From Chiloscyllium plagiosum (taxonomy: Eukaryota): a DNA stretch of 61,051 nt. The notes below the pieces were generated by a model, which worked only from the letters and a program-made list of their open reading frames with translations, was not told the DNA's origin and did not search any database. The position numbers were made by a program, and so were the translations under genes. The stretch is from positions 30,908,413 to 30,969,463 of the forward strand of contig NC_057746.1 in NCBI RefSeq assembly GCF_004010195.1, given 5' to 3'. This document shows positions 5,609 to 57,900 of the stretch, piece by piece. Numbering within the stretch: the stretch's first letter is position 1; every line of letters begins with the position of its first letter.

Positions 5609-8600
5609 CAGGTTTAATAGCTTCCACCATTTCTCTCCACACTGGAAATGGTAAAATGATATTCAAGCTTTCAGTGGACAGGACACCATCTGTTAGTGAC
5701 AGTGCATTACCAGTGTCATGGCTCATCCTGTAAATATTAAAAAGATTATCATAAATTCATTGAAAACCTTTCTGAGCAATTTCACCAACTTGCACTGAGT
5801 TTCAGTAAAGTGCATGTCCTACCTCATCTTCCCAGATACTTCCTCCTGAAATAAACAAAACACAAATCTGAGTTGACAGAGACTGACTGTCTTTATCAAA
5901 AAAATAGTAATTACACTCACATTGCCCCAAGCTGCTGTTCCTGATTGCTGGAACAGAATAAGAATGGCACACAAAACATCCTGAAGCACTGGAGGAAGTA
6001 AAGTCAAAATTAAGGAATTGCAAAGGGTGCCAGTAAACATTAACCAACTTCACTCAAGAAAAGAGAAGATCTGACTTAGATGTTAAAAATTATGAAAGGA
6101 TTAATCTGTTTGATTCAGTGAAGATGTTTCCACCTCAAAGGAACCAGAAAATCTGTGTTCAAATACATAATCCTGTTAGAGCAGCCCATGATTGAGAGCA
6201 GCACAAAATGGCCAGTGGATGCCCATGACAAAAGCAGCAGAACATGGCTTACAGTAGCTCTAGAGAACTTGGTAAAATATTTTGCTGAAGATGTTTCCAC
6301 CTCAAAGGAACAGAAAATCTGTGTTCAAATACATAATCCTGTTAGGGCAGCCCATGATTGAGAGCAGCACAAAATGGCCAGTGGATGCCCATGACAAAAG
6401 CAGCAGAACATGGCTTACAGTAGCTCTAGAGAACTTGGTAAAATATTTTGCTTAATATGTCTGTCTAAGTTATAACAACGGTAGCTCTGTGAACCCAAGA
6501 TAATAGAATTGAGATGGCACAGCAGGCCTCACAGTTATCTGAAGATGCAGCTGCAGTTGCTTACACAGGAGACATATATAAGAGCATTTCACATAAGAAA
6601 CCTACATTTAATTTGTAAATCTGTTACAAATGTAGATTTTAGTCAAGATTCTTCAAATAATGATAGGCATAGATTCTGAATTAGTTATAGATTTACACAC
6701 TTATATAAAGAAAATCCCACTTACAGCATGTGCATAGAAGTTGTTATAATTATAGTTACAAGATAGAAGTGCTGTGTTTGATTGACATTCCAAGGTTGGG
6801 TGAGAAAGAAACTGCTCACAATCCTTAGCTAAAGAATTCTAACATTAGGTATGACCATAGAACTTTATTGGAACTGATGTAACAAATTTTATAACAATTC
6901 ATAAAAATTAGCATCCCTTATATCACCAATAGCAAGATTAGTATGAAAAATGAATTGCATGACAGAATTCAAGAGGTCCTTAGTGATAAATTATTGGCAA
7001 TGAATGGAGCTGGCAATTGTCTGAGAAGGAGTATGGCTAACAGGATTGAATATAGCATCCATTGTGAAAAGCCCCAAGAAGGGGCATAAGAGAATCTGGG
7101 AAGCTTCATGAGAACATAGAGGCCTGTGGGTTGACCACGCACCTGTCCATCTCTGTCCACGCAGTCACAGTATTTCTGAAATTGGAAGGGCAATTAATGA
7201 ATTAATTAATTATGATTGGTCTGCAATTGCTAAAGGCAGGCTGGAAATGTGGAAAGAAATGTATGTCTTTACTTTACTCATTGAAGAGCTCTGGATTTTC
7301 AGACGGTCTCTTGCCACCTGTGAAATTTCAATAAACTCTTTGATGCTAGAAGTATTGAATGATTTATTTGGTCATTCTGCCCCAACAATCTAAATCACAA
7401 ATAAATCGAATGGGGAGTTCATGAGAAATATCTTTATTGAGATAGTGAAGAGGGAAGTGAAACAAAATAGAGTAAAATAAAAGATTAGAACACCTCAATA
7501 GTATCAGGGATAGCAAGGATATAAAGAGCTAAAGCAGAATAGTCCATAGTATGGAAAGTTACTCACAGAGAACTGCATCCCACATGGGAAATGAAAAATA
7601 CAAACAATGCCTTTTCCCCTTTAAAATACTGACTGCTAATAAAACAAACACAAACTCTAACTCTCTGGGTTGTTGCAATACAGTGCAATTTGACACATAG
7701 AATTCCCAAAGTTTCAGGTCGTAACACAAAACCATGTCAGTACTAGGAGAAAGTGAGGACTGCAGATGCTGGAGATCAGAGCTGAAAGTGTGTTGCTGGA
7801 AAAGCGCAGCAGGTCAGGCAGCATCCAAGGAGCGTCAGTACTAGCCAATAAACCATACGCAAAGGAACTGAACACTGGCAAAGTTAATTCTCAGGTCCAA
7901 TTCCTGAAGAGTCAGGTTTGCACCTTCTGACCAATCAGGACATGAAATACCATTTAGCGACACCTAATTGGAAAGTCAGGTATTTAACTATGAGGAAGTT
8001 GTGTTTTAATTTTTTTTAAATTAGGTTTAATTTGACTAAATGCAAGGTATGCCATTTTGATAAAGCAAAGACAGGATTTATACAATTAAAAGTAGGGCCT
8101 TGAGCAGTGTTGTAAAACAATGACACCTCGGTTTTCAAATTCATAATTCTTTTGAAGGTTTCCTCACATGTATACACGGTGGTTAAGAAGCCATTTAGAA
8201 TGTTTGTCTTCATTGCTCAGCCCTTTAAGTATCGGAGTTGGAACATTATGTTGAGGTTGTACAGGACATTGGTGAGGCCTCTTCTGGAGTACTGTATCCA
8301 GTTGTGGTCTCCATGATATAGGAAGGATATCGTGAAGCTGGAGAGTTCGGAAGAGATTTACCAGGATGTTGACAGGAATGGAGGGTTTGAATTGGAAAGA
8401 GAAGCTGGATAAGCTGGAGTTTCTTTCACTGGAGGTTGAGATGTGACCTGAGAGGTTTATAAAATAATCAGGGGTACAGATAAAGTGAATGGCAGGTGTC
8501 TTTTCTCTTGGGAAGGGGATATCAAAATTAGGGGACATACTTGTATGGTGAGAGGTGAAACTTTAAAAAAAACTATAAGGGGCAACTTCTTTCACACAGA

Positions 8601-11600
8601 GAGGAGTTTGTGTGTTGAATGAACTTACAAAGGAAATGTGAATGTGGGTACAGTTACATTTAAAAGACATTTAGACAAGTACATTAATCAGAAATGTTTG
8701 GAGAGATATGGGCCAAGGGCAGGCACATGGGACTAGTTTAGTTTGGGATTATGGACAGCCTGGGCTGGTTGGACCGAAGGGTTTGTTTCCATGCTGTGTG
8801 ACTCTGTGTTTCCATGGTTTTCAGACAGCAGACATTGAGTATCAAATATCTTTACCTCATTTAACTCTCGTAAGGCTGTATTTTATTGAAAGGATACACA
8901 GCCATGTTAAGGTTTAGTTAGCAGTTGGAACCTGTCAAATGTACCCAGCCCAGTGATAAGTAGATTGTCTGCCCAGAATGAAGTATGTAACTGTGCTTTG
9001 TGCATAAAAATCCAGACTATTTGAAATGTGCTCCTCAGGGATACAATGGCCTGCCTGTAGGACAGGGGTGGTGGATACCTGCCTTAGCAGCCTGAACCAG
9101 GAAAAGGCCTTTGACAGGACATCACACACCGACATGTGGGACTTACTCTCCAAAATGGGCTTTGGGAGGGAATCTGCAATCGAATCCGACTGCTCTACAC
9201 TAACATCCTTAGTGCAGTCTCAATTAATGGGTGGGAATGAGACAGCTTCCCGATCAGATCCGGACTCAGGCAGGGCTGCCCACTCTCTCCTGCCTTGTTT
9301 GTGCGTTGTATACAGCCCTTTGCTGAGTCCATCAGGAAGGATGTGAGCCTGAGATGGGGGTGACTATTCCAGGCAGCGGAGGCCTACAAGGGAAAGCCTC
9401 CCTGTACATGGATGATGTCACTGTTTTCTGCTCAGATCTGCTGTCAAGTGCACAGACTCATAAGCATCAATGACCAGTTTGAACTGGCCTCAGCAGCCAA
9501 GGTAAATCAAGGCAAGAGCAAGGCCATGTACTTTGGGAACTGGGCTGACCAATCCTTCATGCCTTTCACAATCAGGACAGATTACCTGAAGGTGCTGGGA
9601 ATATGTTCAGAGGAGCTGAGGCATGCACCAAAACTTGGGAGAAGAGTATTTCCAAGGTAAGACAGAAACTGGTCCTTTGGGAGCACCATTTCCTCTCCAC
9701 TGCAGGTTAAAAACCTGGTTATTAGGTGTGAGATACTTTCACTGTTGTACGAGGGGCAGGACGGGCCCATTCCCAGAACCTGCATTGCTGCAGTTACCCG
9801 AGTCATCTTCCACTTCATCTGGTGGTCTAAGCTGGACATGTCACAGGGACACCATGTAAAAACCTCTGGATAATGGGGGGAAGAACGTACCCAAGATCAC
9901 CCTTATCCTAATGGCCACCTTTGTGTGTGGCTGCATCAAGCTGCACCAAACACCAAGTCTCACTATGTACTGAGGTTCTACCTGTCCCTGGTGTTGGGAA
10001 GGGTGGGACTGGCCTTGTATTAGCAGAGCACTCCAAGTAGTTGGACCGTTCCATATCACCTCACCTTCGTGGAGAAATTTACAAACAAAATCACCTTTAT
10101 CCACAATTCATCAGCACATATCATCCTCGAGAGCCTGGAGGAAATGAGTGGGTGGGTCTTGTCGGCTTGTTCCTTGAGCAGATTGTCAAAGGCATTGCCA
10201 GAACTTCTCAACAAGCATCAGGATGTTGCTTGGTTGCAGGTGAGAAGGGTACTACCTGTGAGATCTTTCATATATACCCGGACTTTCTCTGCCTGCAGTG
10301 GCTTTTGTCAAATTTCATCCTGAGTAGCTCGGTGACTTGTGACTCTGTGTTGTACGGTCTGTTCCCTGGGACACACAGTGAGACAAACATCGACTGCACC
10401 AGGAGGACCATCAACTCAGTGAAAGATGCTCTTTGGTCTGATCGAAACCTGTCAGTCTTCCAGGGCAAGGAGTTGACCCCAACTGAGTGTTACAGACTGG
10501 CATATTCCAAGTCCAGGACCACGTACTGAGGGATGCACTAAAGCCTAGGGCAGCTGCTGCAAGGCCCAGTGTGTAAAGACATAATCTAAAAACCTTTCTG
10601 AAGTTAGATGGAGGTGCACTCAGTTATCAGACCCTCCAGTGCCTCAAATGTATGTAAATATTGTCTTGTACAAGTAAGAAATGCACTGGGTTTGTTTGTC
10701 CACCCAGATATAACTATAACATGTAAAAGATATCTGGGTGGACATATGAAGAGGAAGTGTTTAGAGGGATATGGGTCAAATGCAAGCAAATGGGATGAAT
10801 TAAGTTAGGATATCTGCTCGGTATGGACAATTTGGACTGAAGGGTCTATTTCCATCCTGTATCTCTGACTCTGACTCTATATGTAAAAACTGTACAGAGT
10901 CGAACTGCTCTAGTCATACGAAATGTATGTACTGTATAAAAAGAATTTTATGAATAAACTATATTTTTGAAATACACCAACTTGTAATTTGAACTGTTTT
11001 CCACATGTATGTGAATAAATCACTTGCATCTTGGGTGGAGCTGTGAATTGTCGACTGCTTTTTAATTTAGCCTTTTAATAGTGATGAGAATTTCAATAGT
11101 GAAAGCCACCATCATCAACGAGATTGAGGAAAATGTATGAAGCGGGAGAGTAGACAAACACATGAGGGAAAGAGGAGCAGAAAGGGATATTGGAGGAATG
11201 AGGGAGGATGGGAGCAAGTTTATGAGGATCACATTCTGAGTTTACTTTCCATGAACTAAAATTAAATATAATCCCTCACCTGGAGAAATATCACTCCGTC
11301 TTTTTGTTCCAACTGTTTTTCCAACTTTGAGAGTTTCTCCTGAAAAGAATTTAAATTCTTTTGAATTTTGCCAAGATTTTGCTGCATTGTTCTGAGAATG
11401 TTTTCCTCTTGTTCCCTGAGATCTCGGAGTAAACGCTGCTCTTTCTCAGTGAGAAACTGGTGCATTTTGGTGAACTCGGATTTGATGTGAGTCTGCAGAT
11501 TTTGGGATTGAACCTACAAGAGCAAATATAGAAACAATCTGCTTCTGCAGTAAAACACAACAAAGGAAGGAATCAAATTTGGAAGCTGAGCTCAGGGAAA

Positions 11601-12203
11601 TTTTACCCGAATTTGGGAAATCTTCTGTTTCTGCTGCCGCTCCATTTCGAGAGCCGCCGATTTCTTCCCTGTGAGAGATTCCAAGGAAGATTTCACCCGA
11701 TCCTGGGATTGGGAGAGAAAATCAGAAAATAAAAGTATTAGACCATGAAAATGTGATAAAATAATCAGGGTATGGAATCTGTTTCCTTTTACCTTGTAGA
11801 TTCCAACCGCTTCTTCAATCGGGATGAAGCGGTGCTCCCTGTGTTCCCGGGAAACTACACAAATCACACAAATCAATTTCTTGTCAGTTTCACAAAAAAC
11901 CTTCAGTTCTTCCTGATGTTCCTCACAGTGACGTTTACTTCCCTTCTCTTGCGGATTCAGATTTAACTTCCGAACTTTCTCAGATAGATTCGCTAAGGCC
12001 CGGTTTCCTCTGAGGGATCTGTCCGGAAACTCCTCTCTACATTCCGGGCAGGAGATTCTCTCCTGCCTTTCCCAGCTCTGGGTGATACAGGAGCGACAGA
12101 AGTTGTGTCCACAATCCAGTGAAACCGGATCGGTGAAGAAATCCAGACAAATGGGACAGATTACCTCCTCGGTCAAACTCTGGAAATGGTGTTTGAAATC
12201 CAT
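5609..12203 (-). CDS. TRIM-A, RING/B-box/coiled-coil E3 ligase (TRIM39/RFP/NF7-like). Exons 12203-11793, 11702-11607, 11513-11280, 5845-5823, 5727-5609; PRY/SPRY exon not seen in the window
   Basis: C3HC4 [26 protein letters not shown]; B-box CEEHQE..FCETD..CVIC..H; GT-AG exons of 411/96/234/23/119 bp, all open in phase. Confidence 0.88.
6119..6451. repeat. About 167-bp tandem duplication (2 copies)
   Basis: tgaagatgtttccacctcaaagg...aaaatattttgc at 6119-6285 and 6286-6451, with one indel and one substitution noticed. Confidence 0.9.
7747..7833 (-). mobile_element. Short Penelope-like terminal fragment, truncated before the hammerhead motif
   Basis: Reverse complement of the element at 53742-53829; 11-bp TSD gtcagtactag (7736-7746, 7834-7844). 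Confidence 0.75.
8010..8810 (+). mobile_element. CR1-like LINE 3' fragment
   Basis: aggacattggtgaggcc..tggagtactgt; 3' end gaccgaagggtttgtttccatgctg. Confidence 0.8.
9030..10970 (+). mobile_element. Tx1/L1-clade LINE ORF2 and 3'UTR remnant, interrupted by a CR1 3' end (about 10729-10880, TSD atgtaaaa)
   Basis: SLNQEKAFD, agggctgcccactctctcct (QGCPLS), ctgtacatggatgat (YMDD); homologous to 55110-57900. Confidence 0.8.
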
Positions 12204-12204
12204 G

Positions 12205-12343
12205 CTGTTTGGTATTCCTGATGAAGGGCTTTTGCCCAAAACGTTGATTTTGCCTGTCCTCGGATGCTGCCTGAACTGCTGTGCTCTTCCAGCACCACTA
12301 ATCCAGACTCTGGTTTCCAGCATCTGCAGTCATTGTTTTTACC
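12205..12343 (+). mobile_element. Penelope-like short insertion with a degenerate hammerhead motif, located at the TRIM-A start codon
   Basis: ctgatga-agggc-tttt-gccc-aaaac-gtt; 15-bp TSD tgtttga(a/t)atccatg at 12190-12204 and 12344-12358; absent from paralogue C. Confidence 0.8.
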
Positions 12344-12388
12344 TGTTTGATATCCATGTCCACCCTCATCACTTCCTGATTCAAACTA

Positions 12389-12407: not shown

Positions 12408-14229
12408 TGCGCCGCAGAACACATTCAGCTCAGTCACTCCCTCAGGGAGGTCAGTGCAATCCTCAAGGAATTCTTGTTATTGGCTGCTCTCGGCCCCGCC
12501 CACCCTGAGAGGCGGAGACAGCCCCCAGAGCAGAATGAGGAATAAACAGCGTTAGAGCAGCGACAGGGAATCCCTGAAGCCGGGAGGTGAGAGGGAAGGT
12601 CGGTTGGGAGTGGGGTAGGTGGGTGAAGAGAGGATGGGAGGGGGTGGGGATGTTGTCCTGGGAGTGACTGGCAGCCTGCTGCTCTCCTTCATATCCTTCA
12701 GTCCCAAAGCAGCCCCAGGCACGGATGGCCAAGTTGCGTTTAACTTTGTGGGCAACACAAGCTGAAACATATTGTCCAGCGCCTCCTCACCTTTCCTTTA
12801 CAATCCCCCAGGATCCTCTCAATCCTCACTTCGGGAGTCACTGCACAGAACTGAAGAGCCTCATCCATGGTCCCATTCTGGGAAATCTCCCCTTGCACCA
12901 TCCCTTCAGCCTTGACATCCTTCTGAAAGGCTGTAGCTTGTGCAGGAAACCAGTGGGAATCCTGTTGGTGATGTTTCCACCATTTCTCCAGGCTCACTGC
13001 TGGGTCAGTCCAAGGAAACTCCCCCCAAGGGAGATTCAACCCTAAGGGCTTCCATAAAACCGGACACACGGCAGCAATTCCCTCTCAGATTCTATCTCCC
13101 TCTCCTGGAGAGGGGGGATAGGGAGTGCCTGAGGGTATATGAATAGGAAGGGGTTGGAGGGATATGGGCCGAATGGCCTACTCCTGCACCTATTGTCTAT
13201 TGATCACCCAGGATCTCCTCAATGTACCATAGAGCCAGTATCAGAGCACAGAGCCCAGGACTGCCATTCTGCCCAGGACTGCCATTCAGCACAGCAGCCT
13301 TTCCCAGTCATGGGCTCAGTTCCCAGGAGGTTAGTGCTGTGGATCCTGTTGGCTCACCTCCCACTGGGCAGGCCCCCGGGAAACATTGCAGCAAACCAGG
13401 AGCCCATGGTGGCAGCTGGCTGTGCGCCAGCCCCAAAACTAATCCTCCTCATCGGAGTCCTATTGCCTCGGGACCAGAACATGTGTATTCCCCTGGAGTG
13501 AAATTCAATCCAGTTCTTGGGGCTGGAAGGAGAAGTCCACATCCTAGCCCATTTCTTTCTGAAAACATGGTTTTTGCCACCTGTTCATGAGTCCATATTG
13601 TCCACTCACCTTGTGCATCGCTTCAGAAACAGCTCACCATTCCTGCAGCACACTGCCCAGACATGGGACAAGCTTTTCCTGATCTAGAGATGGAGAGAAC
13701 AACAGATTTCTTCGGATTTCTGTTCCGAGTTCATTTATGAGCCTCCCGTCAATTCCTCAGGGCCCTCTCCTCCTCCAAGACACTTTCTCCTGACAGCCCA
13801 TTGGTCTCCTCACACATGAGATTCCCGAGGCCCAGAAGTTTCAGTTAAATGTTGTGTGGACATGATGGGGAGTGAGCTGCAGCAAAGTGCAGTCCTCATT
13901 GATGAGCCCCTCGGGACTGTCTGTCCCTCTATCCTCAGGCAGGGAGGCTTGCTCAGCACGGCCAGGGCTTTAGTAAACCACCTGTTTGTTTCAGGAATAT
14001 GTTCCCCTCTTCAGCTTTCTCCTCATGGGCCATCTTGAACATCCAGGGGTGGTGAGCTGTCTCCCAGTGACCGTGCTGGAGGTGACTGACTCTCTGCAGC
14101 TGAACTTTGTCCAACTCCCTCCCAGCAGCCGCTGGATGTGTCTGGGGAAGTAGTCCTCTGAAACCATTCCTGCAGCTCGGAGAGAGGCCGTTCCTCAGAT
14201 CACCCAAAGTGTGCCTGCTGACAGGATGG

Positions 14230-14343
14230 ACAGGAGAAAGGGCTTATGCCCTTCCTGAAGAAGGGCTTATGCCCAAAACGTCGATTCTCCTGTTCCCTGG
14301 ATGCTGCCTGACCTGCTGCGCTTTTTCAGCAACACATTTTCAG
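14230..14343 (+). mobile_element. Penelope-like short insertion with a hammerhead motif (G12>A)
   Basis: ctgaaga-agggc-ttat-gccc-aaaac-gtc; 15-bp TSD ctgctgacaggatgg (14215-14229, 14344-14358); empty site at about 30475-30490. Confidence 0.85.
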
Positions 14344-16159
14344 CTGCTGACAGGATGGTCTTGCTTTAATGGGGAGGCTGAATGGAACATTAAACTGGTT
14401 TCATCTGGTGGGAAGGAGTTGCCAAAAATGAAGAGGAAACCAAGTGTTAGTTTGTGAGAAATGTCTTTCCCCAGAGATTGGTGAGAATGTGGGGCTCACT
14501 GATGCATCGTGTCATTGAGAGGAATTTCTGGAGAAATGGAGGATGTTGATGGGTTTTAACAAGCAGAGGCTGGAGAACTGGATGTAATGGACTGTTTCTG
14601 TGCTGTCCGTAACAGAGAATAATCTGTCAGCGATCGCCCTTCCCTCAGTTACTCTGTGCCAGCTGCTGTCTCCCCATCACTGTTGTGCCTGAGAGCAGAT
14701 CCCTCAGTCCAGGCTGGGGCGCCTCCCTGCTCTGCATGGTTCAGTATCACAGCAGTCGGTGCATTGACCCACTGAGCAATCAGGGCCACACACAGGGAGC
14801 TCAAAAATCAAACTGTGATCAAAGCACAGGAACAGATCCAATCAGCACAGAGAGAGGGAGAGAGAGACCCTGATCATCTCCTTTCTCTCTCCAGAAATAA
14901 GCAACACTGGAACCTCGATCATGCTTTAAAACTGGAGTCCCTGTTGATCTGGAAATAGGGAGATAACTGGGTTTCCCAGACTTAGTCTGGCACTGACGTC
15001 TTGATCCTTGCGTTAAAATGTCAAGATGTATCAAATGCTAAAATGTCATGGATTCAGAGACAGGAGAATGGGAAAGCAGCTGAAAATGTGCCTGAAGGGA
15101 CAGGATAAGCTGAATGGAGCAGAATCACAGTGCAGTCACAGCACATTGGGGATAACATAGACTTAAAGGTGGAAGGTATTTAAATATTTTGTGTATATCC
15201 ATCATGCTGCAATGGAAGATCTGTCTTTGTTGTTTAATAAGTCTGCTGTTTCTCCTTGTGTAATAATGTAACTAGTTGTGAGGTGAACCAATGTGCTGAG
15301 CTTCAAGCCAGGAGGGAGGTAGATGGAGTTCTAAACGAAGAAGAATTCAGTCTAAAGATATCATTGCTGAACAAAACAGGGACACACACAGAGAAATGTC
15401 AGGGCCTGTCACCTCAGAGAGGACTTCCCTTGCCCACAGCAACAGGACTAGAGCCTGTCACCTTTGGGATGTGTGAATGGCCCCTTCGTGCCCTCCTCTG
15501 ATCCAGCAATCACCCCCATTGCTGGCCTGTGCCTGGAGACTGCCCTCTGCTGGAAGGAACATGTGATCACACGGAGGTGGTCCTGCATCTGCAGGGGAGC
15601 ATTGATGACCCACTCAGATGGCCTGGGTTAAGGCATTGCTTTATCTGTCAAGGGAGCAGGGTCAGGAAGAGTATAAACTCCATCCAAGAGGTCTGGTGAA
15701 GGTAATGGACACAAAATTTCCATTGTACCCAAACCAGAGCTTCTAAAGTCTCATCATGATGATATTGGTTTTATACTTTCTATCTCTATTGCTGACACCT
15801 CATCAGTTCAACCACTTTATCCAACCACTCTGCAAACCTCATCAGTGCTCCTCACCAGCCTCCATATCCCTCTAATGCTGCAATCCGATTAGAATTGGAC
15901 ATTTTCTGTTCTCCAAAATGCAAATGCTCATGCTCCAGCATCATTATATACAAATGTACCGGTAGAAACTTCAGGGAAATTGGGAGAATCTTACCTTTTT
16001 GTTAAGTCTATGTCCAGGAGGGAATCTCGGCATGAGACCCCAATGAAGATTCTAACCATATCTGACCAACTCACCACAGTAATTACCAACACCACCCCAA
16101 CGGTATCTCCCATGGCTGATTTCAGCCTCACCTTACCATGCACCATTTCCTGAACAACA

Positions 16160-25961: not shown

Positions 25962-25992
25962 GTCCACCCTCATCACTTCCTGATTCAAACTA

Positions 25993-34146: not shown

Positions 34147-36055
34147 ATGGCTTTCAGACAGCAGGTCCTGAGTTTGACCGAGGAGGTAATCTGTCCCATT
34201 TGTCTGGATTTCTTCACCGATCCAGTTTCACTGGAGTGTGGACACAACTTCTGCCGCTCCTGTATCACCCAGAGCTGGGAAAAGCAGGAGATAAACTCCT
34301 GCCCGGAATGTAGACAGGAGTTTCCAGACAGATCCCTCAGAGGAAACCGGGCCTTAGCGAATCTGGCCGAGAAAGCTCGAACATTAAATCTGAATCCACA
34401 AGAGAAGGAAAGTAAACATCACTGTGAGGAACATCAGGAAGAACTGAAGCTGTTTTGTGAAACTGACAAGAAATTGATCTGTGTGATTTGTAGAGATTCC
34501 CGGGAACATAAATCTCACAACTTCATCCAGATCACAGAAGCTGTTGGAATCGACAAGGTAAAAGGAAACACATTCCATCCCCTGATTATTTTATCACATT
34601 TTATTAAAATTATTTTATTAAAATACTTTTATTTTCTGATTTTCTCTTCCAATCCCAGGATCGGGTGAAATCTTCCTTGGAATCTCTCACAGGGAAGAAA
34701 TCGGCGGCTCTAGAAATGGAGCGGCAGCAGAAACAGCAGATTTCAAAAATTCGGGTAAAGTCCCATGGAGATCAGCTTCAAAATTTGATTTGTTCATTTT
34801 TTATTGCAGAAACATCACAGAAAAGATCACAAAAGCGCTTCACAGGAGGCTCCCAAGCGCTGAGGATGTCACCTAGACAGGGGACGAAACGTCTGCAACA
34901 CAAATTCCCAGCTCGGCGAACAGAACCACAACAACGAGCACCCGAGCTACAAATCTTCTCACAAACTTTGCAGAAACATATTGTATTTATATTTCCCCTG
35001 ACAGGAGGAATCCAGCAGCCTGCAGACCCACATCAAATCCGAGTTCACTAAAATGCACCAGATGCTGTCTGAGAAAGAGCAGAGTTTACTCCGAGATCTC
35101 AGAGAACAAGAGGAAAACATTCTCAAACCAATGAAGCGAAATCTTTGTAAAATTCAAGATAATTTAAATTCTCTTCAGGAGAAACTCTCAACGTTGGAGA
35201 AACAGTTGGAACGAAAAGACAGAGTGGTATTTCTGAAGGTGAGGGATTATATTTCAGATTAGTTCAGTGACCGTGACTGTGAACAGTCCCAACATGATGC
35301 AGACACCCATCCTCCTTCATTCCCCCCGTCACTATCTCCCTCTGCTCCTTTCTCCCTCATGGTTTTCCCTACTTTTCTGTTTATACATTTGTGTCAATCA
35401 CACTGTGTGACAGTGGATTCCATACTTCCATCACTTTCTTGATAACAATATTTCTCCTGAAATCCCCATTGGGTTTATTTGTAATTAGATTATGTTCATA
35501 TATTCCAGTTTTCAGGTTCTTTAGAAATGGAAACATGTTGATTAAATCTATGGGATCAATCCCTTTCATAATTGCCAGCTTTCAAATCAGATGTTTACTT
35601 CAGTAAAATACATTAATGTTTCCTTCAATCCTTTACAGTTGTTTGAATTTTTTTGACCTTCTCCTGCTCTTCAATATCCTTTGTGTCACATCCTCTTTCT
35701 ATTCCATGTCTGAAATAATCAGACTTGACAATGCTCAGCAGGTTGTAACAATGTGAGTGCAATTGCTGCTTTTTAGATATGGACAGTCAGTCTCTGTCAA
35801 CTCAGATTGGTGTTCTGTTTGTTTCAGGAGGAAGCATCTCGGGAGAGGAGGTAGGACATGTACTTTACTGAAACTCAGTAAAATTACTCAGGGAAGTGTT
35901 TGTGATGAATTTACAATAATTATTTTGTTTTGTTTGCAGGATTAGTGATAATAGTAATGAGCTCTCACTAACAGATGGTGCCCTGTCTCCCGAAAATTTC
36001 AACATTGTTTTACCATTTCTTGTGTGGAACGAAATGCTGGAAACTATTAAACCTG
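34147..36055 (+). CDS. TRIM-D, RING/B-box/coiled-coil. Exons 34147-34557, 34659-34754, 35005-35238, 35828-35850, 35940-36055; B30.2 exon not seen
   Basis: Intact RING and B-box; 411/96/234/23/116-bp GT-AG exons open in phase. Confidence 0.88.
34816..34967 (+). mobile_element. Penelope-like short insertion (second family) in TRIM-D intron 2
   Basis: 12-bp TSD ttgcagaaacat (34804-34815, 34968-34979); contains a hammerhead motif; absent from paralogous introns. Confidence 0.8.
34857..34896 (+). ncRNA. Minimal type-I hammerhead ribozyme motif with intact core
   Basis: gcg-CTGAGGA-t-gtcacct[agac]agggga c-GAAAC-GTC-tgc: conserved core, 6-bp stem II with one mismatch, palindromic ACGT in place of stem III, 3-bp stem I. 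Confidence 0.7.
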
Positions 36056-36567
36056 GTAAAGCTCTGATAAGTTGCTTTGTTTTGATTCCTGTTTTAAAAT
36101 TTGGATTGTTATGTGTATAAATATTAATGACAGTATAATTAATGCTCAGTTATAACTAAAGCTGGATAATAATGGCTTTCACCGTCATTGATATCGACAC
36201 AGTATTTGGCTTGGAGCTCTCCAAAACTGAAGTCAACAGGAATTGGGGAAAACTCTCCACTGGTTGGAGTGAAACTGAGCACAAGGGAAGATGGCTGTGA
36301 GTGTTCAAGGTCAATCATCTCAACTCAAGGACATTTCTGTAGGAATTCTCAGGGGAGTGTTTTTGCCAGAAATCTTCAGCTGCTTCCTGAATACATTTTC
36401 CCCCATCCTGGGGAGGGGGATGGGTGGAGATATTCTCTAATAATAGGACAATATTCTGCCCCATTTGAGAAAGAAACTGACACCACAGTGAACCTGCACA
36501 GTTACTGCCTTTGCTGTTTGAATTCATGTATCGCTGGACATCGGAGTGTGTCTGGGAAAATTAAGTT

Positions 36568-38162
36568 AAAAATCACACAACATCAGGTTGTAGTCCAACA
36601 GGTTTATTTGGAAGCACACTAGTTTTTGGAGCAACGCTCCTTCATCAGGTGGTAGTGGAGGACACAATTGTAAGGCACAGAATTTATCGCAGAAGTTTAC
36701 AGTGTGATGTAACTGAAATTATACATTGAAAAATACCTTGATTGTCTGTTGAGTCTTTCATCTGTTCAAATACCATGATAGTTTCACTTCTTTCATGTGT
36801 AAATCGCAAAATCTTTTCTTAAAAGTTGCATTCTCAGGTTAAATGTAACAATTGGTGTTAGCTGGACAATATGTTGAAGGTGTTAGCCCCCTGTATTCTC
36901 TGTCTGTGCCATGATATTTAGATTGATTCTAAACTAAGTAGTGAGATAATAGAGTTTTACATGAATTCATGCAGTTTTTGAACAAAGTACAATGTTACTC
37001 TGCAAGTACAAATTCACTCCACAAAATACATATATATATGTGTGCATGTGGGTCTTTGTGTGTGTGTGTGTGTCTGGGTTGGGAGTGTCGTGAGTGTGAG
37101 AGAGAGTGTATAAGTGTACATATGTGAGTGTAGAGTGTCTTAAGTCTGTGAGGGGGTGCATGTGTGAGTGTGGGAGTGTGTGTGTGTGTGTGTGTGTCTG
37201 GGGTGATGGGTTGTGAGTGTCTGTGTGAGAGTGTATATGTGTGTGCGTGAGTGTAGAGTGGTTTAAGTCTCTGAGAGGATGCATGTGTGAGTGTGGGAAT
37301 GTGTGTGTCTGTAAGGGTGTGTGTGAGTGTCTATGTATATGTGTGTCCGTGTGTATGTGTGTATAGGAGTGCCTATGTGTGTGTGTNNNNNNNNNNNNNN
37401 NNNNNNNNNNNNNNNNNNNNNNNNNNNNNNNNNNNNNNNNNNNNNNNNNNNNNNNNNNNNNNNNNNNNNNNNNNNNNNNNNNNNNNNNNNNNNNNNNNNN
37501 NNNNNNNNNNNNNNNNNNNNNNNNNNNNNNNNNNNNNNNNNNNNNNNNNNNNNNNNNNNNNNNNNNNNNNNNNNNNNNNNNNNNNNNNNNNNNNNNNNNN
37601 NNNNNNNNNNNNNNNNNNNNNNNNNNNNNNNNNNNNNNNNNNNNNNNNNNNNNNNNNNNNNNNNNNNNNNNNNNNNNNNNNNNNNNNNNNNNNNNNNNNN
37701 NNNNNNNNNNNNNNNNNNNNNNNNNNNNNNNNNNNNNNNNNNNNNNNNNNNNNNNNNNNNNNNNNNNNNNNNNNNNNNNNNNNNNNNNNNNNNNNNNNNN
37801 NNNNNNNNNNNNNNNNNNNNNNNNNNNNNNNNNNNNNNNNNNNNNNNNNNNNNNNNNNNNNNNNNNNNNNNNNNNNNNNNNNNNNNNNNNNNNNNNNNNN
37901 NNNNNNNNNNNNNNNNNNNNNNNNNNNNNNNNNNNNNNNNNNNNNNNNNNNNNNNNNNNNNNNNNNNNNNNNNNNNNNNNNNNNNNNNNNNNNNNNNNNN
38001 NNNNCACTCACACATGCACCCCCTCACAGACTTAAGACACTCTACATATGCACACATATATACTCTCTGTCACACTCACGACCCCCCAACCCAGTTGCAT
38101 TCTCAGGTTAAATGTAACAATTGGTGTTAGCTAGACAATATGTTGAAGGTGTTAGCCCCCTG
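36568..38162 (-). mobile_element. Penelope-like element 3' region (third family) with a degenerate hammerhead at 36617-36651, (TG)n-rich tract and inverted segment
   Basis: Reverse strand reads cac-CTGATGA-aggagc-gtt-gctcc-aaaaacta-gtg; 38005-38090 is inverted relative to about 37075-37175; about 70-bp direct repeat at 36824-36893 and 38093-38162. Confidence 0.6.
37040..37386. repeat. Imperfect (TG)n microsatellite running into a gap
   Basis: Directly visible. Confidence 0.9.
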
Positions 38163-39705: not shown

Positions 39706-39709
39706 AACA

Positions 39710-47020: not shown

Positions 47021-50000
47021 TCAGTGACCTTTCAGCCCGCAGATTGTCAGGGGGCTAGAATTCTTTCCGCTGTCGTGTGGCCCCGGGTGGAACAGTGGGA
47101 AGAGCCTCTCAGTGAAAGTGTGGCTGAAAGTGTGGAGATGGGACATGGTGTCCGCATTGTAAAATGACACCTGGCCCCCCTCATAGTCCAGGAACACGCC
47201 GACCTTCCGGGGATTCCCACTCGGGGACAGCGCAGTCACTGGATCAGTCCCAGCCAGGTACATCTGGTCATGTCTCAGCCACACAGTCCAGTATCCAGAC
47301 TGGGGACACAGATCGATTCTCCCCTTCCTCACGGCATTCCCTCGGGTCACTCCCACACGCCACCAGGTCTTCCCCCCCACCTCCACCTCCCAGTAATGTC
47401 TCCCTGATGTGAAGCTCTCCGATGCCAGCACACAGAGCCAGCGGTCAAACCTGTCCGGGGAGTCAGGGAGCTCCTGCAGTGTGTTGCCGACTCTCACACT
47501 GGTCCGGTCCTCAGACAGGATCAGCCGGGGGTGCGCTGTGTTCGGATCCAGAGTCAGACAGGCTGGAGCTGGGGGGGGGGGGGGGATATGTATAAATAAC
47601 ACAGTCAGCCATCGAGTTCCTCTCTGTCAGTCTCCCAACCGCCTCCCTCGGGAGATTCCCGGGAATCCCAGGGTTTCTGAAGGGATCCAGGTTCTGTCAT
47701 TAGCTGTGGGTGTGCGCTCAGTCCCCACACATCACCTTCTCTTCTGGCACTAACTCCGGATTCTGCAAAGTTGTAGCAGATTTCACAAACTACTGGTTAC
47801 CTGGGGACAAGCTCCAACCCTCCATCATCACAATGTGATGCTGTCATTTTGTATCGGCATCAACGCTGGAAGATGCAGCATTGTACAAGAACACTGACGG
47901 TTAGATACGCGGGGGATAGACACTGGGGAATATTAAAAATAATAAGCTCCGTTCATATTAAAATATAATTAATATTGCACACCAAGACTGAAACTGCAGG
48001 CTTTTAGCAGGAAAACGAACCATCGAAGCAGGGAAACAGGTGAGGGAGGAATATTGGATCAGACAGAAATTGCTGGAGAAATTCAGTCGGTCTGTCTGGC
48101 AGCGTCAGTGGAGAGAAAGCAAGGCCTGAGTTTCAAATGCAGCGAGGGAAAGGTGATATTTAGACCGATCATAGGGCGGTGCTGAATGGGTCGGTCCAGA
48201 CGGAGCTGAGAGAGTGAAAGTTAGACAGAGGGATGGTTGCTAGTAACCAGGGAAGATGGAAAGCTGACAGTAGGGACATGTGCGGGTTGTTCTGAAAGGA
48301 GCTCGTGTCATAGCGGTGTGGGGTGAGTCCCAACAGGCTGCAGAATCCCCTGTTGGGCAGTTCTTCCGGCTGGCGCTGAGCTTCACTGGAATACTGCTGT
48401 AAACCCGAGACAGAGGTATTGGTCAGGGAACAGGCTGGGTGGTGAATTGGCAGGCCAACTGGGAGCTCAGGCGCTTTTCTGTGGATTGAAGTAGGTGTTC
48501 TGAGAATGGGTCACCCAGTTTAAGCTTCCTTTCCCCAATGTAGAGGAGACATCCCTGATGAAGGGCTCATAGCGGAAACATCGACTCTCCTGCTCCTCGG
48601 ATGCTGCCTGCCCTGCTGTGCTTTTCCAGCGCCACACTTTAACACAATGTAGAGGGGTCATTGTGAGCAGCGAGTGCGGGAGACCAGCGGTAAAACGCTG
48701 CTTCACCTGGAAGGTATACAGTATTTGTGTCCTTGGACACTGAGGAGGGAGGAGGTAGATGGAAAATGTGAGGCTCACTACTGGGCACACTGCTGTCCTT
48801 TAATAGTGAGAGACTGGGGCAGTTCAATCCAGAGCCATGGTTTAAATTCCCACTTTGGAGCGTCACTCTTGCTCTATTATATTTGGGGGGAAAAGGCGCC
48901 ATAGGAAACCTCCATCATTTCGTTTATTGTTTAGTTGCTAAGACTTTTCATTCACTGTGTAATTAATCAAACTTTCCCATCACCTGACTTCACTGTAAAG
49001 GAGGTCATTGTAAAATGGCAAACTGAGAAAACATAATTTTTTTAAAAAATCAATAGACAACCGAGCTGTCAGATAAAACATTTCTCCCTAAAACTGCCCG
49101 GAAACTGCCCCTGCGTCTGTCTGTGCAGAAAGTGCTCCCCCCTAGTGATGGAGATGGGACATGGGGCTCACATTGTAAAATGATACCTGTCCGCCCTCAC
49201 AGTCCGGCGATACCCCGATCTTCCGGGGTCCAGAAATGTCCCCGAAATCTCTCTGAACCCGTGTCCTTGGTATTCCGATCTATCACACGGAATACTGATC
49301 TCCCCAGTCTGCTGCAACCCCCAGGCCCCTGCGTTAAAAACACCCCGTCCGTCCAGAACACCGGATTCTCAGGACCCTCAGCTTCCCATTCCCCCGTGTT
49401 TCCCACTTCTTTGTGCTCTCCAATTCCCTGCATTTACCGTTTCTTTGCGGTCCCCATTTCCAGGAGTTTTCCAGGTCCTTGTGCTTCCCACTCCCCCGTG
49501 ATTCCTAGTTCCATGAGCTTCCCAATTCCCTGTGTTTACCATTCTCCAGTGGTTCCCAGTTCCCTGTATTTCCCAGTCCCCCGTGATTCCCCCGTGGTCA
49601 CCTGCCCCCTGGGGTTCCCAGTTCCTTGTATTTCCCACTCCTCTGTGGTCCCAGCTCTCTGCGTTTCCTACCAGTTCCTTGAGCTTCCCAGTTCCCTGCC
49701 CTGTGATTCCCCAGACCCTTGTGGCTCCCATTTCCCTTGGTTTCCCAGATCCTGTGTTTGTCAGTGCCCTGTGATTCTTACTCCCCTGTATTTCCCAGTT
49801 CTCATATTTCCTACTCCCATGTCATTCCCAGATCCTGTAATTCCCCGTTCCCCGTGTTGCCCATTTACCTGTAATTCCCAGTCCCCTGTGTTTCACACGC
49901 CCAGTGATTCCCAGCTCCTTGTGTTTCCCAGTTCCCTGTAATTCCCAATCGCCTGTGTTGCTCAGCCCCCTGTCACCCTCAGCCCCAGCGGAGTGACCTC

Positions 50001-53445: not shown

Positions 53446-53670
53446 GATTTGCATCATCACAAAAACATTGTGGGCAAGAGATTATGCAGTCTTCCATTAT
53501 ATTCAAACCTTGGCTTGATGTCCCATTGCCAGGCCCCATGATTAAAGCAGGAAGCAGAAAGGAAGCGACCACTCAATGGACAGCTGCATTCTTCTCTCCC
53601 TGTCAGGCTTTTGTGCTCAAATCCCACTCTAGGAGCATGTATTTGGAAAGGCAAGGTCTGATTAGGGATA

Positions 53671-53710
53671 GGAGAATCGACGTTTCGGGCATAAGCCCTT
53701 CTTCAGGAAG
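53671..53710 (-). ncRNA. Minimal hammerhead ribozyme motif with intact core
   Basis: Reverse strand cttc-CTGAAGA-a-gggc[ttat]gccc-GAAAC-GTC-gattctcc; stem I is weak. Confidence 0.6.
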
Positions 53711-53829
53711 AAGGGCTTATGCCCGAAACGTCGATTCTCCTGTTCCCTGGATGCTGCCTGACCTGCTGCGCTTTTCCAGCAACACATTTTCAGCTCTGAT
53801 CTCCAGCATCTGCAGACCTCACTTTCTCC
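53672..53829 (+). mobile_element. Penelope-like short insertion with an inverted 5' end forming a palindromic hammerhead pair
   Basis: 15-bp TSD tctgattagggatag (53657-53671, 53830-53844); 35-bp perfect inverted repeat 53670-53704 / 53707-53741. Confidence 0.85.
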
Positions 53830-55109
53830 TCTGATTAGGGATAGTCAACATGGCTTTGTGCTTGGGAAATCATGTCTCACAAACTTGATTGAGTTTTTTG
53901 TAGAAGTGTAAAAGAGGATTGATGAGGGCAGAGCAGTGATGTGGACTTCAGTAAGGCGTTTGACAAGGTTCCCCATGGGAGACTGGTTAGGAAGGTTTGA
54001 TCTCACGGAAAACAGGGAGGACTTGCCATTTGGATACAGAACTGGCTCAAAGGTAGAAGTCAGAGGGTGGTGGTGGAGGGTTGTTTTTCAGACTGGAGGC
54101 CTATGACCAGTGGAGTGCCACAAGGTTCGGTGTTGTGTCCACTACTTTTCATCATTCATATAAATGATTTGGATGTGAGCATAAGAGGTATAGTTAGTAA
54201 GTTTGCTGAAAAAATCAAAATTGGATGTGTAGTGGACAGCGAAGAGGGTTACCTCAGATTACAACAGGATCTGGACCAGATAGGCCAATGGACTGAGAAG
54301 TGGCAGATGGAGTTTAAGTCAGATAAATGTGAGGTGCTGCATTTTGGGAAAACAAATCTTAGCAGGACTTATACAGTTAATGTAAGGTCTAGGGAGGGTT
54401 CTGAACAAAGAGACCTTGGCGTGCAGGTTCATAGCTCCTTGAAAGTGGAGTTGCTGGTAGATAGGATAGTGAAGAAGGCGTTTGGTATGCTTTCCTTTAT
54501 TGGTCAGAGTATTGAGTACAGGAGTTGGGAGGTCATGTTACGGCTGTACAGACATTGGTTAGGCCACTGTTGGAATATTGCGTGCAATTCTGGTCTCCTT
54601 CCCATTGGAAAGATGTTGTGAAACTTGAAAGGGTTCAGAAAAGATTTACAAGGATGTTGCCAGGGTTGGAAGATTTAAGCTATAGGGAGACACTGAACAG
54701 GCTGGGGCTGTTTTCCCTGCAGTGTCAGAGGCTGAGGGGTGACCTTATAGAGGTTTACAAAATTATGCGGGGCATGGATAGGGTAAATAGACAAAGTCTT
54801 TTCCCTGGGGTTGGGGAGTCCAGAACTAGAGGGCATCAGTTGAGGGTGAGAGGGGAAAGATATAAAAGAGACCTAAGGGTCAACTTTTTCACACAGAGAG
54901 TGGTACATGTATGGAATGAGCTGCCAGAGGAAGTGGTGGAGGCTGATACAATTACATTTAAGAGGCATATAAATAGAAAGGGTTTGGAGGGATATGGGCC
55001 GGGCGCTGGCAGGTGGAACTAGATTGGGTTGAGATATCTGGTCGGCATGGACGGGTTGGACCGAAGGGTCTGTTTCCATGCTGTACATCTCTATGACTCT
55101 ATGACTCGA

Positions 55110-57900
55110 TGGCAGACAAGCTTCTCTCTGAGTCTCCAACAGACTGGTGGGAAACTGACAAAAGGTTCTTTATCCTCAAAGGTATTCGGAAGGTGAGAGA
55201 GAGAGGCGGGGAAAACTGTTCACACTCCAGAAAGCCAGGCAGACGCTGCTCCTGCTGCAGATGATGGAAGTGGATGTTACGGAAGATCTCCAGGAGGTGA
55301 GGAGCCTGCAAGCCTCACTCTCTGCCTCCAAGATAATTTTCCGGTCTAGGGTCTACTCAGTGGAACAGGATGAGGCGTGCTCACGTTTCTTCTTCCAGAA
55401 GGTGCACAGGGAGAGCTCCGTGCTCAGCAGACCGAAAGAAGAAGTTGGCTCGGTAACGTCATCTCAGGCTGACATCCTGAGGATCTGCAAATCCTTTTAT
55501 TGCCAGTCTGTTTGACCCAAAGCCCAGAGGCAGCTTTCCTGTCCTCGATCACGGAGAACTTAGACAACAGAACACGGGAGAGGCTGGACCAGCCGCTATC
55601 TTTGGGAGAGCTGACAAAGGCCCTCAAGTCCATAGAAAAGAATAAAACTCCCAGAAGCGATGGCTTACCGATTGAGCTCTATTCCGCTCTGTGGGACTTT
55701 ATTGGCCAGGACCTGCTGGAGGTGTATGTCAGTATGCTTCGGGCAGGTACTATGAGTGAATCCATGAGGAAAGGCATCATCACCCTCATCTACAAGCGGA
55801 AGGGGGAGAGGGAGGAAATCAAAAATTGGAGACCAACCTTACTGTTAAATGTGGACTACAAAATCCTCTCTAAGGTCATTGCCAAATGGGTTAGGTCTGC
55901 TCTGGGGTCAGTGATTCACCCTGACCAAACCTGTGCAGGAAAATCACTGAGAGTCTTGCACTCCTCAGGGATATGATCGCCTAAGTGCAGGACAGTAGGG
56001 TGGACACCTGTCTGATCAGCCTGAACCAGGAGAAAGCCTTTGACAGGATATCACACACGTATGTGAGAGATGTTCTCTCCAAAATGGGCTTTGGGGAGGG
56101 ATTCTGCAATTCGCTCTGACTGCTCTACACCAACATCGTCAGTGCAGTCTCAATCAACGAGTGGGAATTTGAAAGCATCCCGATCAGACCCAGAGTCAGG
56201 CAGGGCTGCCCTCTCTCTCCTGCCTTGTTTGAGTGTTGTATGGAGCCCTCTGCCGAGTCCATCAGGAAGGATGCGAGCCTGAGAGGGGCGACTATTCCTG
56301 GCAGCGGGGGCCTACAGGTTAATGCCTCCCTGTACATGGATGATGTCACAGTTTTCTGCACGGATCCACCGTCCGTGCACAGACTCATGTGCATATGTGA
56401 CCAGATTGACCGGGATTCAGGAGTCAAGTTAAACCGAGGCAAAAGCGAGGCCATGCTCTTCGGGAACTGGGCCAACCAATCCTAGATCCCCTTCACCATC
56501 AGGACTGACCACCTGAAGGTGCTGGGTATTTGGTTCGGAGGGGCTAGGGCATGCACCAGGTCTTGGGAGGAGCGTGTCATTAAAGCGAGTCAGAAATTGG
56601 GCAGATGAGAGCACCAGTCACTCTCCATGGCTGGTAAAAACATGGTTATCAGGTATGAGTTGTATGTGGCTCAGGTCTGGCCTACTTCACGAACCTTTGC
56701 TGCCGCAGTAATCCACTTCATTTGGAGGTCAAAGATGTGCCGTATCCGAAGGGACATCAGGTATAAATATCTGGGCAAAGGGGAAAGAACACAGCCAATG
56801 CTACCCTCACCCTGATGGCTACCTTTGTGTGTGGCTGCATCAAGCTGCGCATACACCCTTGCTATGCAAACACCAAGTGTCACTACGTACTGAGGTTCTA
56901 CCTGTCCCCGGTGTTGCGAAGGATGGGCCTGGCCTCGCTGCCACAGAATGCTCCAAGTAGTTGGACCGCTTCATACTACCTGTCCCTCATGGAGAAATTT
57001 GTGAAGAAAAACACCTTTGACCACAAACCAAAAGAGAAAATGCTGGAAAGTCTCAGCAGGTCTGGCAGCATCTGTAAGGAGAGAAAAGAGCTCCACAGTA
57101 ATTTGCTTTTAACCTTTGACCACAAGTCCACAGGAAGTGGTCAGCACGTAGTGTCCTTGAGACCCTTCAGGAAAAGGAGAGGGCGGATCCTATCGAGCGG
57201 TTCCCTGAGCAGACTGTCAAAGTCATCGGCAGAATGTTTCATCACCAGAACTTTCCAACAAGCATCAAGACATGGCTTGGCTGGTGGTGAGAAGGGCTCT
57301 GCCTGTGAGATCCTTTATGCAGGCCCGGACTCTTGGCCACACCGCACACTGCCCTCAAAGCGGCTGCGGGGGGGACGAGACTGTCACACACCTCCTTCTG
57401 GAATGTGCCTACACAAAGGAAGTCTGGAGAGGAATGCAGTGGTGTTTGTCGAGGTTCGTCCCGAGCAGCACCGTGACGCGGGACTCCATGCTCTACGGTC
57501 TGTTCCCTGGGACGCACACCGAGACGAACATCAACTGTGCCTAGAGGAGCATCAACTGTGCCTAGAGGACCAAAGATGCTCTTTGGTCTGCCTGAAACCT
57601 GCTTGTCTTCCAGCTGAAGGAGTTGACCCTGACTGAGTATTGCAGACTGGCACATTCCAAGGTCCAGGACTATGTGCTGAGAGATGCACTAAAACCTAGG
57701 GCAGCTGCTTTAGTGAGAAAGACCACTGTGTAAGGCCCTTCTGCCAAAGAGTGACAAAGGTCCATTCAGTATTTGGGCCCTGCTGATGCTTCAGCTAAAT
57801 GCCAAGAGATTGGTTGTAAATATGCAGAATGCTGAACGTCAAGGCTTGTTCTCTCTAAATAAAGAGAGTATAGATCTGAATGGTTTCATTAACTGTAATG
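55110..57900 (+). mobile_element. Tx1/L1-clade LINE ORF2 remnant
   Basis: KTPRSDGLPIELY..KNWRPTLLLNVDYKILSK..HPDQT; SLYMDDV; zinc knuckle CPQSGC..ETVTHLLLEC. Confidence 0.9.
57027..57111 (-). mobile_element. Short Penelope-like terminal fragment inside the Tx1 element
   Basis: 14-bp TSD acctttgaccacaa (57013-57026, 57112-57125); atgctggaaa.tctcagcaggtctggcagcatc. Confidence 0.65.

What the first reader, a model, noticed from the sequence alone, without database searches (positions are those of the whole stretch)
7736..57125. At least three families of very short, TSD-flanked Penelope-like insertions, most carrying a hammerhead motif
Seen: 85-160-bp insertions at 7747, 12205, 14230, 34816, 48547, 53672 and 57027, each with an 11-15-bp TSD, plus a longer copy at 36568. 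Six of these eight carry CUGANGA..(G/A)AAA cores with different stem II sequences that mostly retain pairing (gggc/gccc, ggagc/gctcc, gtc.cct/agg.gac; disrupted at 48547). In five copies the 5' end lies within about 45 nt of the ribozyme motif. Inference: these are either non-autonomous retrozyme-like units or insertions whose 5' ends are set by self-cleavage. Several are recent enough to differ between the duplicated segments.
Basis: partly seen in the sequence, partly recalled or inferred. Interest (0 to 1): 0.7.

Follow-up and report, generated by a model that had tools for sequence, protein, structure and literature searches.

The report
Truncated Penelope retroelement ends with hammerheads
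The short inserts are real, but they are the cut-short tail ends of ordinary Penelope-like jumping genes in what is likely a shark genome; most keep the part of their small hammerhead ribozyme motif that self-cleavage would have removed, so the ribozyme did not set their ends.

Summary
All seven short inserts and their 11-15-bp TSDs are real, and six of eight copies carry a minimal type I hammerhead motif. They fall into four families (A, B, C, D). Core-bearing copies keep 36-78 nt (one about 760) upstream of the predicted cut, which a cleaved RNA would lack. The 34816 insert is not non-autonomous: its two halves encode the C-terminus (GIY-YIG end) and the N-terminus of an autonomous Penelope/Poseidon RT-endonuclease ORF (98% identical bamboo-shark protein). 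3' ends sit at two sites about 36 nt apart, the known PLE 'tail', so 85-160-bp copies end near the motif largely by geometry. Laid reads show no depth drop at family D's cut; family B drops 4-5-fold in contigs, but this is confounded. One residue is open: 4 of 5 family A copies break at the motif's front edge (post hoc P about 0.05), perhaps the RNA start. Most window cores are mutated. Two inserts are absent from 94-98% duplicated blocks. The scan already noted this many times elsewhere in this genome. Known kind, low interest.

The parts
7736..7844 (-). Family A copy 7747-7833 with 11-bp TSD; no core, starts about 10 nt 3' of the predicted cut; long 3' end (with tail)
12190..12358 (+). Family A (divergent subfamily) copy 12205-12343, 15-bp TSD; core 12218 with G12>A; 41 nt 5' and 98 nt 3' of cut; absent from duplicate at about 25947-25962
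14215..14358 (+). Family A copy 14230-14343, 15-bp TSD; core 14255 with G12>A; first 22 nt are rearranged (9 nt inverted from downstream, then a second stem II); short 3' end 61 nt after cut; absent from duplicate at about 30475-30489
34804..34979 (+). Family D (Poseidon-type) copy 34816-34967, 12-bp TSD; intact minimal hammerhead 34860-34893; encodes the last about 15 codons of a GIY-YIG ORF (stop inside stem II) and, from ATG 34866, the first 35 codons of the RT ORF; AC-rich stem-loop 34910-34948
36563..37386 (-). Family B long copy; core 36648 (G12>A here, intact in laid reads), cut about 36620, AATAAA at about 36602-36607, 3' end 36563-36566; runs at least 738 nt upstream of the core into an N gap; no TSD found
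38005..38162 (.). Probable rearranged 5' side of the family B copy: inverted piece of 37074-37170 followed by a direct repeat of 36824-36893
48066..48118 (-).
   Evidence: nhmmer E=0.003
48536..48655 (+). Family A copy 48547-48644, 11-bp TSD; core 48555, stem II broken; 36 nt 5' and 62 nt 3' of cut
53657..53844 (+). Family A copy 53672-53829, 15-bp TSD; 5' fold-back: 34-bp inverted arm holds the full core (53706, - strand), forward arm starts inside the core; long 3' end about 97 nt after cut
57013..57125 (-). Family C copy 57027-57111, 14-bp TSD; no core; about 18 unassigned 5' bases, then the 3' stem-loop module shared with family A

Best explanation
These are 5'-truncated insertions of the terminal module of four Penelope-like element (PLE) families, likely made by target-primed reverse transcription that starts inside an uncleaved element RNA just downstream of the hammerhead motif and stops early. 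Shown: TSDs, solo state, a minimal hammerhead motif 5' of a stem-loop, and two fixed 3' ends about 36 nt apart. For family D, the insert is the ORF-end/ORF-start junction of an RT plus GIY-YIG ORF. Taken from anole Poseidon (PMC11167929) and inferred here: the endonuclease makes a staggered cut (11-15-bp TSD), and RT primes internally at one of two sites at the stem-loop, 60-100 nt 3' of the cut site. It then copies through the intact motif and ends after 85-160 nt, sometimes folding back or switching template (53672, 14230). Because the start is fixed this close to the motif, any short copy ends near it. The copies are likely dead on arrival, and their cores then decay, mostly at CpG. A-C are assigned by shared architecture; their parent ORF was not found.
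For: Five sense-core copies keep 36, 41, 53, 78 and about 760 nt 5' of the cut. Window 34818-34970 translates to a peptide 98% identical over 92% of 51 aa to the N-terminus of P0001, a 656-aa RT protein of Chiloscyllium punctatum. In another frame 34829-34873 matches the last 15 aa of P0015, which is 92% identical to P0001 over 223 aa. The P0015 model matches telomerase RT (Z 13.5, rmsd 4.8, 248 aligned) and, at residues 328-416, the GIY-YIG domain of I-TevI (Z 9.5, rmsd 2.5, 86 of 92). ATG is at the start of stem II, 28 nt before the cut, and the 3' end at +102 to +105; anole PAc has 26 nt and +111-118. Family A 3' ends are 61-62 or 96-98 nt after the cut. Family D 3' ends pile at 34970 (297 and 353 contigs), and joints also show ends at 34930-34935. 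Family B ends pile at 36563-36566 (2318 contigs over three listed positions in X1, 2479 over four in X10), with a tail-like consensus beyond 36563. Family D depth upstream/downstream of the cut is 0.91 (X1), 0.53 (X10) and 0.93 (RNA X21), and 66 contigs continue upstream of 34822 in family sequence. 235 RNA reads run on from 36617 into an intact family B core, and no pile of molecule ends was listed. The 5' inverted arm and the tail are described PLE features.
Against: No parent ORF was found for A, B or C, so 7 of 8 listed copies are assigned by architecture only. Family B contig depth falls to 0.19 (X1) and 0.26 (X10) just upstream of the cut. This may be real truncation in the motif, but the window copy diverges from the family exactly there (414 and 451 loose ends at 36617 continue as family hammerhead, agreement only 0.62-0.64). 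The poly(A) single-cell library is poorly suited to show 5'-OH or cyclic-phosphate ends, and its reads probably come mostly from dead copies in host transcripts.
Confidence: 0.85

Rival explanations
1. Refinement for family A: the 5' ends are run-off points. The element's mRNA would start a few bases upstream of the hammerhead core, RT primes at the 5'-proximal stem-loop and falls off the RNA end, then joins the target or folds back.
For: 4 of 5 family A breaks lie within -13 to +2 of the core (P about 0.05 post hoc), two of them with fold-back or template-switch junctions. D. virilis Penelope starts transcription 46 nt before an intron whose 3' end maps at helix I. Anole PAc product length follows the template's 5' end. 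Earlier scan notes report the same pile (unchecked leads, not support).
Against: Family D does not stop there: depth is nearly flat over the 75 nt upstream of the cut in X1 and X21. The family B window copy runs at least 738 nt upstream. n=5, and the upstream family A consensus is unknown. No cap or TSS data.
Confidence: 0.4
2. Refinement: RT stalls or slips at the hammerhead fold (stem II hairpin and helix I) on a longer RNA, giving a truncation and inversion hot spot at the motif.
For: Breaks at or inside the core in 53672 and 14230; duplication of stem II at the 14230 junction; family B depth drop at the motif.
Against: The motifs fold no better than shuffles (z -0.7 to -1.6; +0.7 for the broken 48555). 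Breaks lie past stem II rather than before it, and family D, with the longest stem II, is read through.
Confidence: 0.2
3. One reading: hammerhead self-cleavage trims the RNA, and the cut end becomes the 5' end of the insert.
For: 7747 begins about 10 nt after the cut and the family-like part of 57027 begins within about 4 nt of where a cut would lie by family A spacing. The family B depth drop coincides with the cut bin. Family cores are intact in laid reads (B) and at 34860 (D).
Against: 6 of 8 copies retain sequence that cleavage would remove. There is no drop at family D's cut in X1 and X21. The family B loose ends at 36617 are short (median 23-24) and continue as hammerhead, not as unique flank. 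In anole PAc, cleavage is not needed, and no reads ended at the cut.
Confidence: 0.05
4. The A, B and C inserts are a non-autonomous, retrozyme- or SINE-like family with its own transcription unit, mobilised in trans by PLE proteins.
For: No ORF parent was found for A-C; lengths are similar; family B has its own poly(A) signal, used in RNA (422 and 643 reads with poly(A) at 36588 and 36591). A preprint reports retrozymes in one chondrichthyan genome.
Against: All copies are solo, none in tandem. 5' ends differ in every copy. The motif is minimal, not canonical. The family B poly(A) site lies 25-28 nt upstream of the genomic 3' ends, so that RNA cannot template these copies. Family D is coding.
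Confidence: 0.08

Closest known systems
Poseidon of Anolis carolinensis (PAc; Frangieh et al. 2024, PMC11167929)
   Same: ORF start at the base of hammerhead stem II, cut 26 (here 28) nt after ATG, two 3' ends at an AC-rich stem-loop about 110 nt into the ORF (here +65-70 and +102-105), uncleaved RNA as template
   Different: Shark family D also has the ORF stop inside stem II, so ORF end and start overlap (not stated in the parts of the paper read). Families A-C have no long ORF starting at the core.
[quoted passage not shown]
   Same: Type I core, unpaired base before stem II, G10.1-C11.1, no helix III but a palindrome after GAAA, several families per genome, mostly single motifs in truncated PLEs
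   Different: Sharks are not named in the parts read (supplement not opened); stem II is shorter in family A (4 bp) than in the Schistosoma motifs (7-8 bp).
Insertion units of EN+ PLEs (Arkhipova et al. 2013, PMC3846280; Craig et al. 2021, PMC8557442)
   Same: High 5' truncation, inverted 5'-truncated arm, optional 30-40-bp tail, pLTR that includes the first ORF codons, TSD
   Different: TSDs are longer here (11-15 bp against 8-10 bp in the rotifer examples), and the copies are extremely short.
Non-LTR retrozymes (Cervera and de la Pena 2020, PMC7229834; Li et al. 2026 preprint 10.64898/2026.07.22.740005)
   Same: Type I hammerhead in a short repeat related to PLE pLTRs; TSD longer than 4 bp
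   Different: Retrozymes are tandem 150-450-bp units with a ribozyme in each unit (canonical in the 2020 definition), giving circular RNA; these are solo, minimal, of variable 5' end, and coding in family D.

Membership tests
Canonical EN+ Penelope-like element (Penelope/Poseidon) | Single ORF with telomerase-like RT | tested here: met
   Family D only, through homologs P0001 and P0015; the ORF body is not in the window
Canonical EN+ Penelope-like element (Penelope/Poseidon) | C-terminal GIY-YIG endonuclease | tested here: met
   P0015 328-416 against I-TevI 1ln0: Z 9.5, rmsd 2.5, 86 aligned; Pfam GIY-YIG only weak (E 0.16, below cut-off)
Canonical EN+ Penelope-like element (Penelope/Poseidon) | RT/EN parent ORF for families A, B, C | tested here: inconclusive
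   Two short-peptide searches of family A found nothing meaningful; B and C not searched; no genome held
Canonical EN+ Penelope-like element (Penelope/Poseidon) | Minimal type I hammerhead in the terminal repeat | tested here: met
   Families A, B, D (intact B core in laid reads); family C copy lacks that part
Canonical EN+ Penelope-like element (Penelope/Poseidon) | Optional 30-40-bp 3' tail (two RT start sites) | tested here: met
   A: 61-62 against 96-98 nt after cut; D: 34930-34935 against 34970; B: shared consensus beyond 36563
Canonical EN+ Penelope-like element (Penelope/Poseidon) | 5' truncation with adjacent inverted segment; TSD | tested here: met
   53672 fold-back, 14230 junction, seven TSDs
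Canonical EN+ Penelope-like element (Penelope/Poseidon) | Partial-tandem full-length copy with pLTRs | not testable with these tools
   No assembly held; P0001 and P0015 ends are compatible with it but give no DNA context
Non-LTR retrozyme | Head-to-tail tandem units, each with a hammerhead | tested here: not met
   No tandem array at any of the loci in the window; elsewhere in the genome not tested
Non-LTR retrozyme | Canonical type I hammerhead with helix III and loop-loop contacts | tested here: not met
   Motifs are minimal, with no helix III
Non-LTR retrozyme | No coding capacity | tested here: not met
   Family D encodes both ORF ends; undecided for A-C
Non-LTR retrozyme | Self-cleavage and circular RNA | not testable with these tools
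   Only a poly(A) library and contigs were laid

The most novel reading that the evidence does not exclude
The swarm of 85-160-bp stubs is the in vivo footprint of a PLE 'strong-stop' step. RT primes at the stem-loop near the 5' end of the element's own mRNA, runs off at a transcription start right at the front edge of the hammerhead, and normally jumps template to build the pLTR-ORF-pLTR tandem; stubs and fold-backs are failed jumps. Thousands of natural junctions would then map the PLE replication intermediate, and the D-to-B tail-to-tail joints would show one PLE family homing to another's 3' ends.
Probability: 0.3. Interest if true: 0.55.

Novelty: new member of a known kind. Interest (0 to 1): 0.2.

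Why it matters
As it stands, this adds shark examples of a described kind. It gives modest in vivo support, from another lineage, for internal priming on uncleaved RNA as shown in vitro for anole Poseidon. It argues against the ribozyme defining insert ends. It would matter more if the family A front-edge pile proved to be a transcription start, because how PLEs build their pseudo-LTRs and what their hammerhead does are still open, and this genome holds thousands of junctions to test both.

Tried and rejected
No whole genome was held. Rfam gathering search gave 0 hits. A family A/C motif scan gave 0 matches in viral contigs and 81 in metagenome contigs; the best element alignments to those were at most 40 bp, and I treated all 81 as chance matches. 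A family A motif gave 0 matches in prokaryote genomes. Parent ORF for family A: one frame gave no hit; another gave one weak hit (E about 0.001, 36%, a 58-aa tandem repeat protein), rejected. A PDB sequence search with the endonuclease stretch gave 0 hits. The single-sequence fold of that stretch failed (pLDDT 39) and was not used. Foldseek listed only polymerases among the rows shown. No RNA holder was listed by the run search, and run X22 laid 0 reads. Loose ends at 36660-36661 in RNA were considered as 5' ends and rejected: they resemble variant versions of the upstream family sequence. A TATAAA upstream of 34822 with a start near 34838 was considered for family D: one gene-model junction (P0002) and 3 inversion contigs fit, but RNA and DNA depth do not drop there, so it is left as a weak lead. 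A formal covariation count was not run: three stem II types are too few and MAFFT put family B out of register. Summed contig depth was not used as a copy number. Searches for a shark-specific description listed none by title or abstract start. Supplements of PMC4209133 were not opened, and those of the bioRxiv preprint are closed; either may list these families.
Full report
Setting. The window is vertebrate-type DNA with a cluster of TRIM-like exons and LINE fragments (labels recalled from the translations, not from a family search). The family D peptide matches Chiloscyllium punctatum proteins at 98-100%, so the host is likely a bamboo shark or a close relative. No genome was held.

Observation. 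Seven inserts of 85-158 bp are bounded by 11-15-bp TSDs; at 1864 random positions such a repeat occurred in 0.6%. The eighth copy (36563 to at least 37386, minus strand) has no TSD that I could find. Six of eight carry CUGANGA-stem II-RAAA. A descriptor made after seeing them finds 5 in the window and none in 200 shuffles. The copies fall into family A (7747, 12205, 14230, 48547, 53672), B (36568), C (57027) and D (34816). A and C share the 3' module by BLAST and B aligns to it more loosely; D matches none of them. A decayed ninth copy lies at 48066-48118. Empty sites are clear for 12205 and 14230 in blocks 94-98% identical; these blocks could be duplicates or two haplotypes.

The motif. It is the minimal type I hammerhead of metazoan PLEs (PMC4209133; I read parts 1-2 of 4, results and discussion): one unpaired base after the core, a G-C closing pair, no helix III and a short palindrome after GAAA. 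Stem II differs between families and pairs in each (4 bp in A, 5 bp in B, 3+3 bp in D). That is three types read by eye, not a covariation statistic, and the folds are no better than shuffles. In the window three cores have lost G12 by a CpG-type change and one has a broken stem II; only 34860 and the inverted arm of 53672 are intact.

Cleavage does not set the ends. The cut lies 3' of the core, so an RNA trimmed by it lacks the core. The sense-core copies keep 41, 53, 78, about 760 and 36 nt 5' of the cut, and the forward arm of 53672 starts inside the core. Only 7747 (about +10) and 57027 (near the cut by spacing, no family reference) are compatible. I laid three informative runs on 34744-36993 with bin edges at the D and B cuts (a fourth, X22, laid nothing). 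For D, depth upstream over downstream of the cut was 0.91, 0.53 and 0.93, and 66 contigs continue upstream of the window copy in family sequence. For B, contig depth falls to 0.19 and 0.26, which counts against a simple picture. But the window copy diverges from its family at that spot, and the loose ends there (414 and 451 contigs, 235 RNA reads) continue as hammerhead rather than as unique flank, with agreement 0.62-0.75, so a minority of true ends cannot be excluded. No pile of molecule ends was listed, though a poly(A) single-cell library is a weak test. Only 18 of about 2200 loose-end rows and 15 of 184 joint rows were shown.

Family D is a piece of an autonomous element. Frame 3 of the insert matches the N-terminus of P0001, a 656-aa RT protein. 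Frame 2 matches the last 15 residues of P0015, which is 92% identical to P0001 over 223 aa. The P0015 model matches telomerase RT and, C-terminally, the GIY-YIG domain of I-TevI (Z 9.5, rmsd 2.5, 86 aligned). The ORF stop and the next ATG both lie in stem II. This is the layout of anole Poseidon (PMC11167929; parts 1-2 of 4 read): ATG at stem II, cut 26 nt on, RT starting internally at two sites of an AC-rich stem-loop at +111-118, and cleavage not required. Here the figures are 28 nt and +65-70 or +102-105, the first inside the predicted AC-rich loop. No parent was found for A; B and C were not searched.

Why 5' ends lie near the motif. 3' ends are fixed: 61-62 or 96-98 nt after the cut in A, about 40 or 74-77 in D, and about 55 in B with a longer form. 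The 36-nt difference is the PLE tail (PMC8557442 and PMC3846280, passages). With such ends and lengths of 85-160 bp, a copy falls within 45 nt of the motif with P=0.87. In B, RNA is polyadenylated at 36588-36591, upstream of the genomic 3' ends, so that transcript cannot be their template; this fits internal priming on read-through RNA (inference).

What stays open. Four of five family A copies break between -13 and +2 of the core, P about 0.02-0.07 under simple length nulls chosen after the fact. Two of them have fold-back or template-switch junctions. Run-off at a transcription start just before the motif is my preferred reading (0.4), with precedent in D. virilis (PMC2377424 passages; PMC4209133); stalling at the fold is next (0.2). 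Family D does not show it. Earlier notes on other pieces of this genome report the same pile for larger samples. They raised my weight on it, but I could check it only on my five copies.

Comparison and verdict. The inserts work like, and for D are, 5'-truncated insertion units of canonical EN+ PLEs. They fail the retrozyme tests of tandem arrangement, canonical ribozyme and non-coding state (PMC7229834 passages; preprint 10.64898/2026.07.22.740005, parts 1-3 of 5). The preprint also notes that most PLE insertions are 5'-truncated and hold a single terminal repeat. My searches listed no paper on these shark families by title or abstract start; unopened supplements may hold them. New member of a known kind; interest 0.2.

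Noticed in passing
laid runs X1, X10 on window 34930-34970 and 36563-36568 (table 5): Family D 3' ends are joined tail-to-tail to family B 3' ends in 31 contigs (X1) and 12 (X10) among the 15 joint rows shown, at several different offsets. This may be a cross-family insertion preference for AT-rich PLE ends, or short-side mapping noise (21-25 letters).
   Followed up: partly
window 36588-36607, minus strand: Family B carries an AATAAA used for polyadenylation in RNA (422 and 643 reads at 36588 and 36591), with about 8:1 sense bias; copies may donate poly(A) sites to host transcripts.
   Followed up: partly
window 34860-34893: The family D ORF stop codon and the next ATG both lie within hammerhead stem II, so the element has no untranslated spacer; motif, ORF end and ORF start overlap.
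   Followed up: yes
upstream of window 34822 (loose-end consensus); P0002; X10 joint at 34838: A TATA-like word lies about 31 nt before a point where one gene-model junction and three inversion contigs break; depth does not drop there.
   Followed up: partly
P0001 homolog list: Apart from shark proteins, the closest named relatives of the family D ORF are flatworm proteins (Dicrocoelium, Schistosoma, Spirometra; 40-53% identity); may reflect database content or old horizontal transfer.
   Followed up: no
window 10879-17202 against 24602-33562: Blocks 94-98% identical holding TRIM-like RING/B-box exons, separated by N gaps; recent duplication or two haplotypes assembled in series.
   Followed up: partly
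window 48066-48118, minus strand: Decayed extra copy of the A/C 3' module without clear TSD.
   Followed up: partly
window 38005-38162: Inverted and direct pieces of the family B upstream region beyond the N gap, probably a complex 5' junction.
   Followed up: partly
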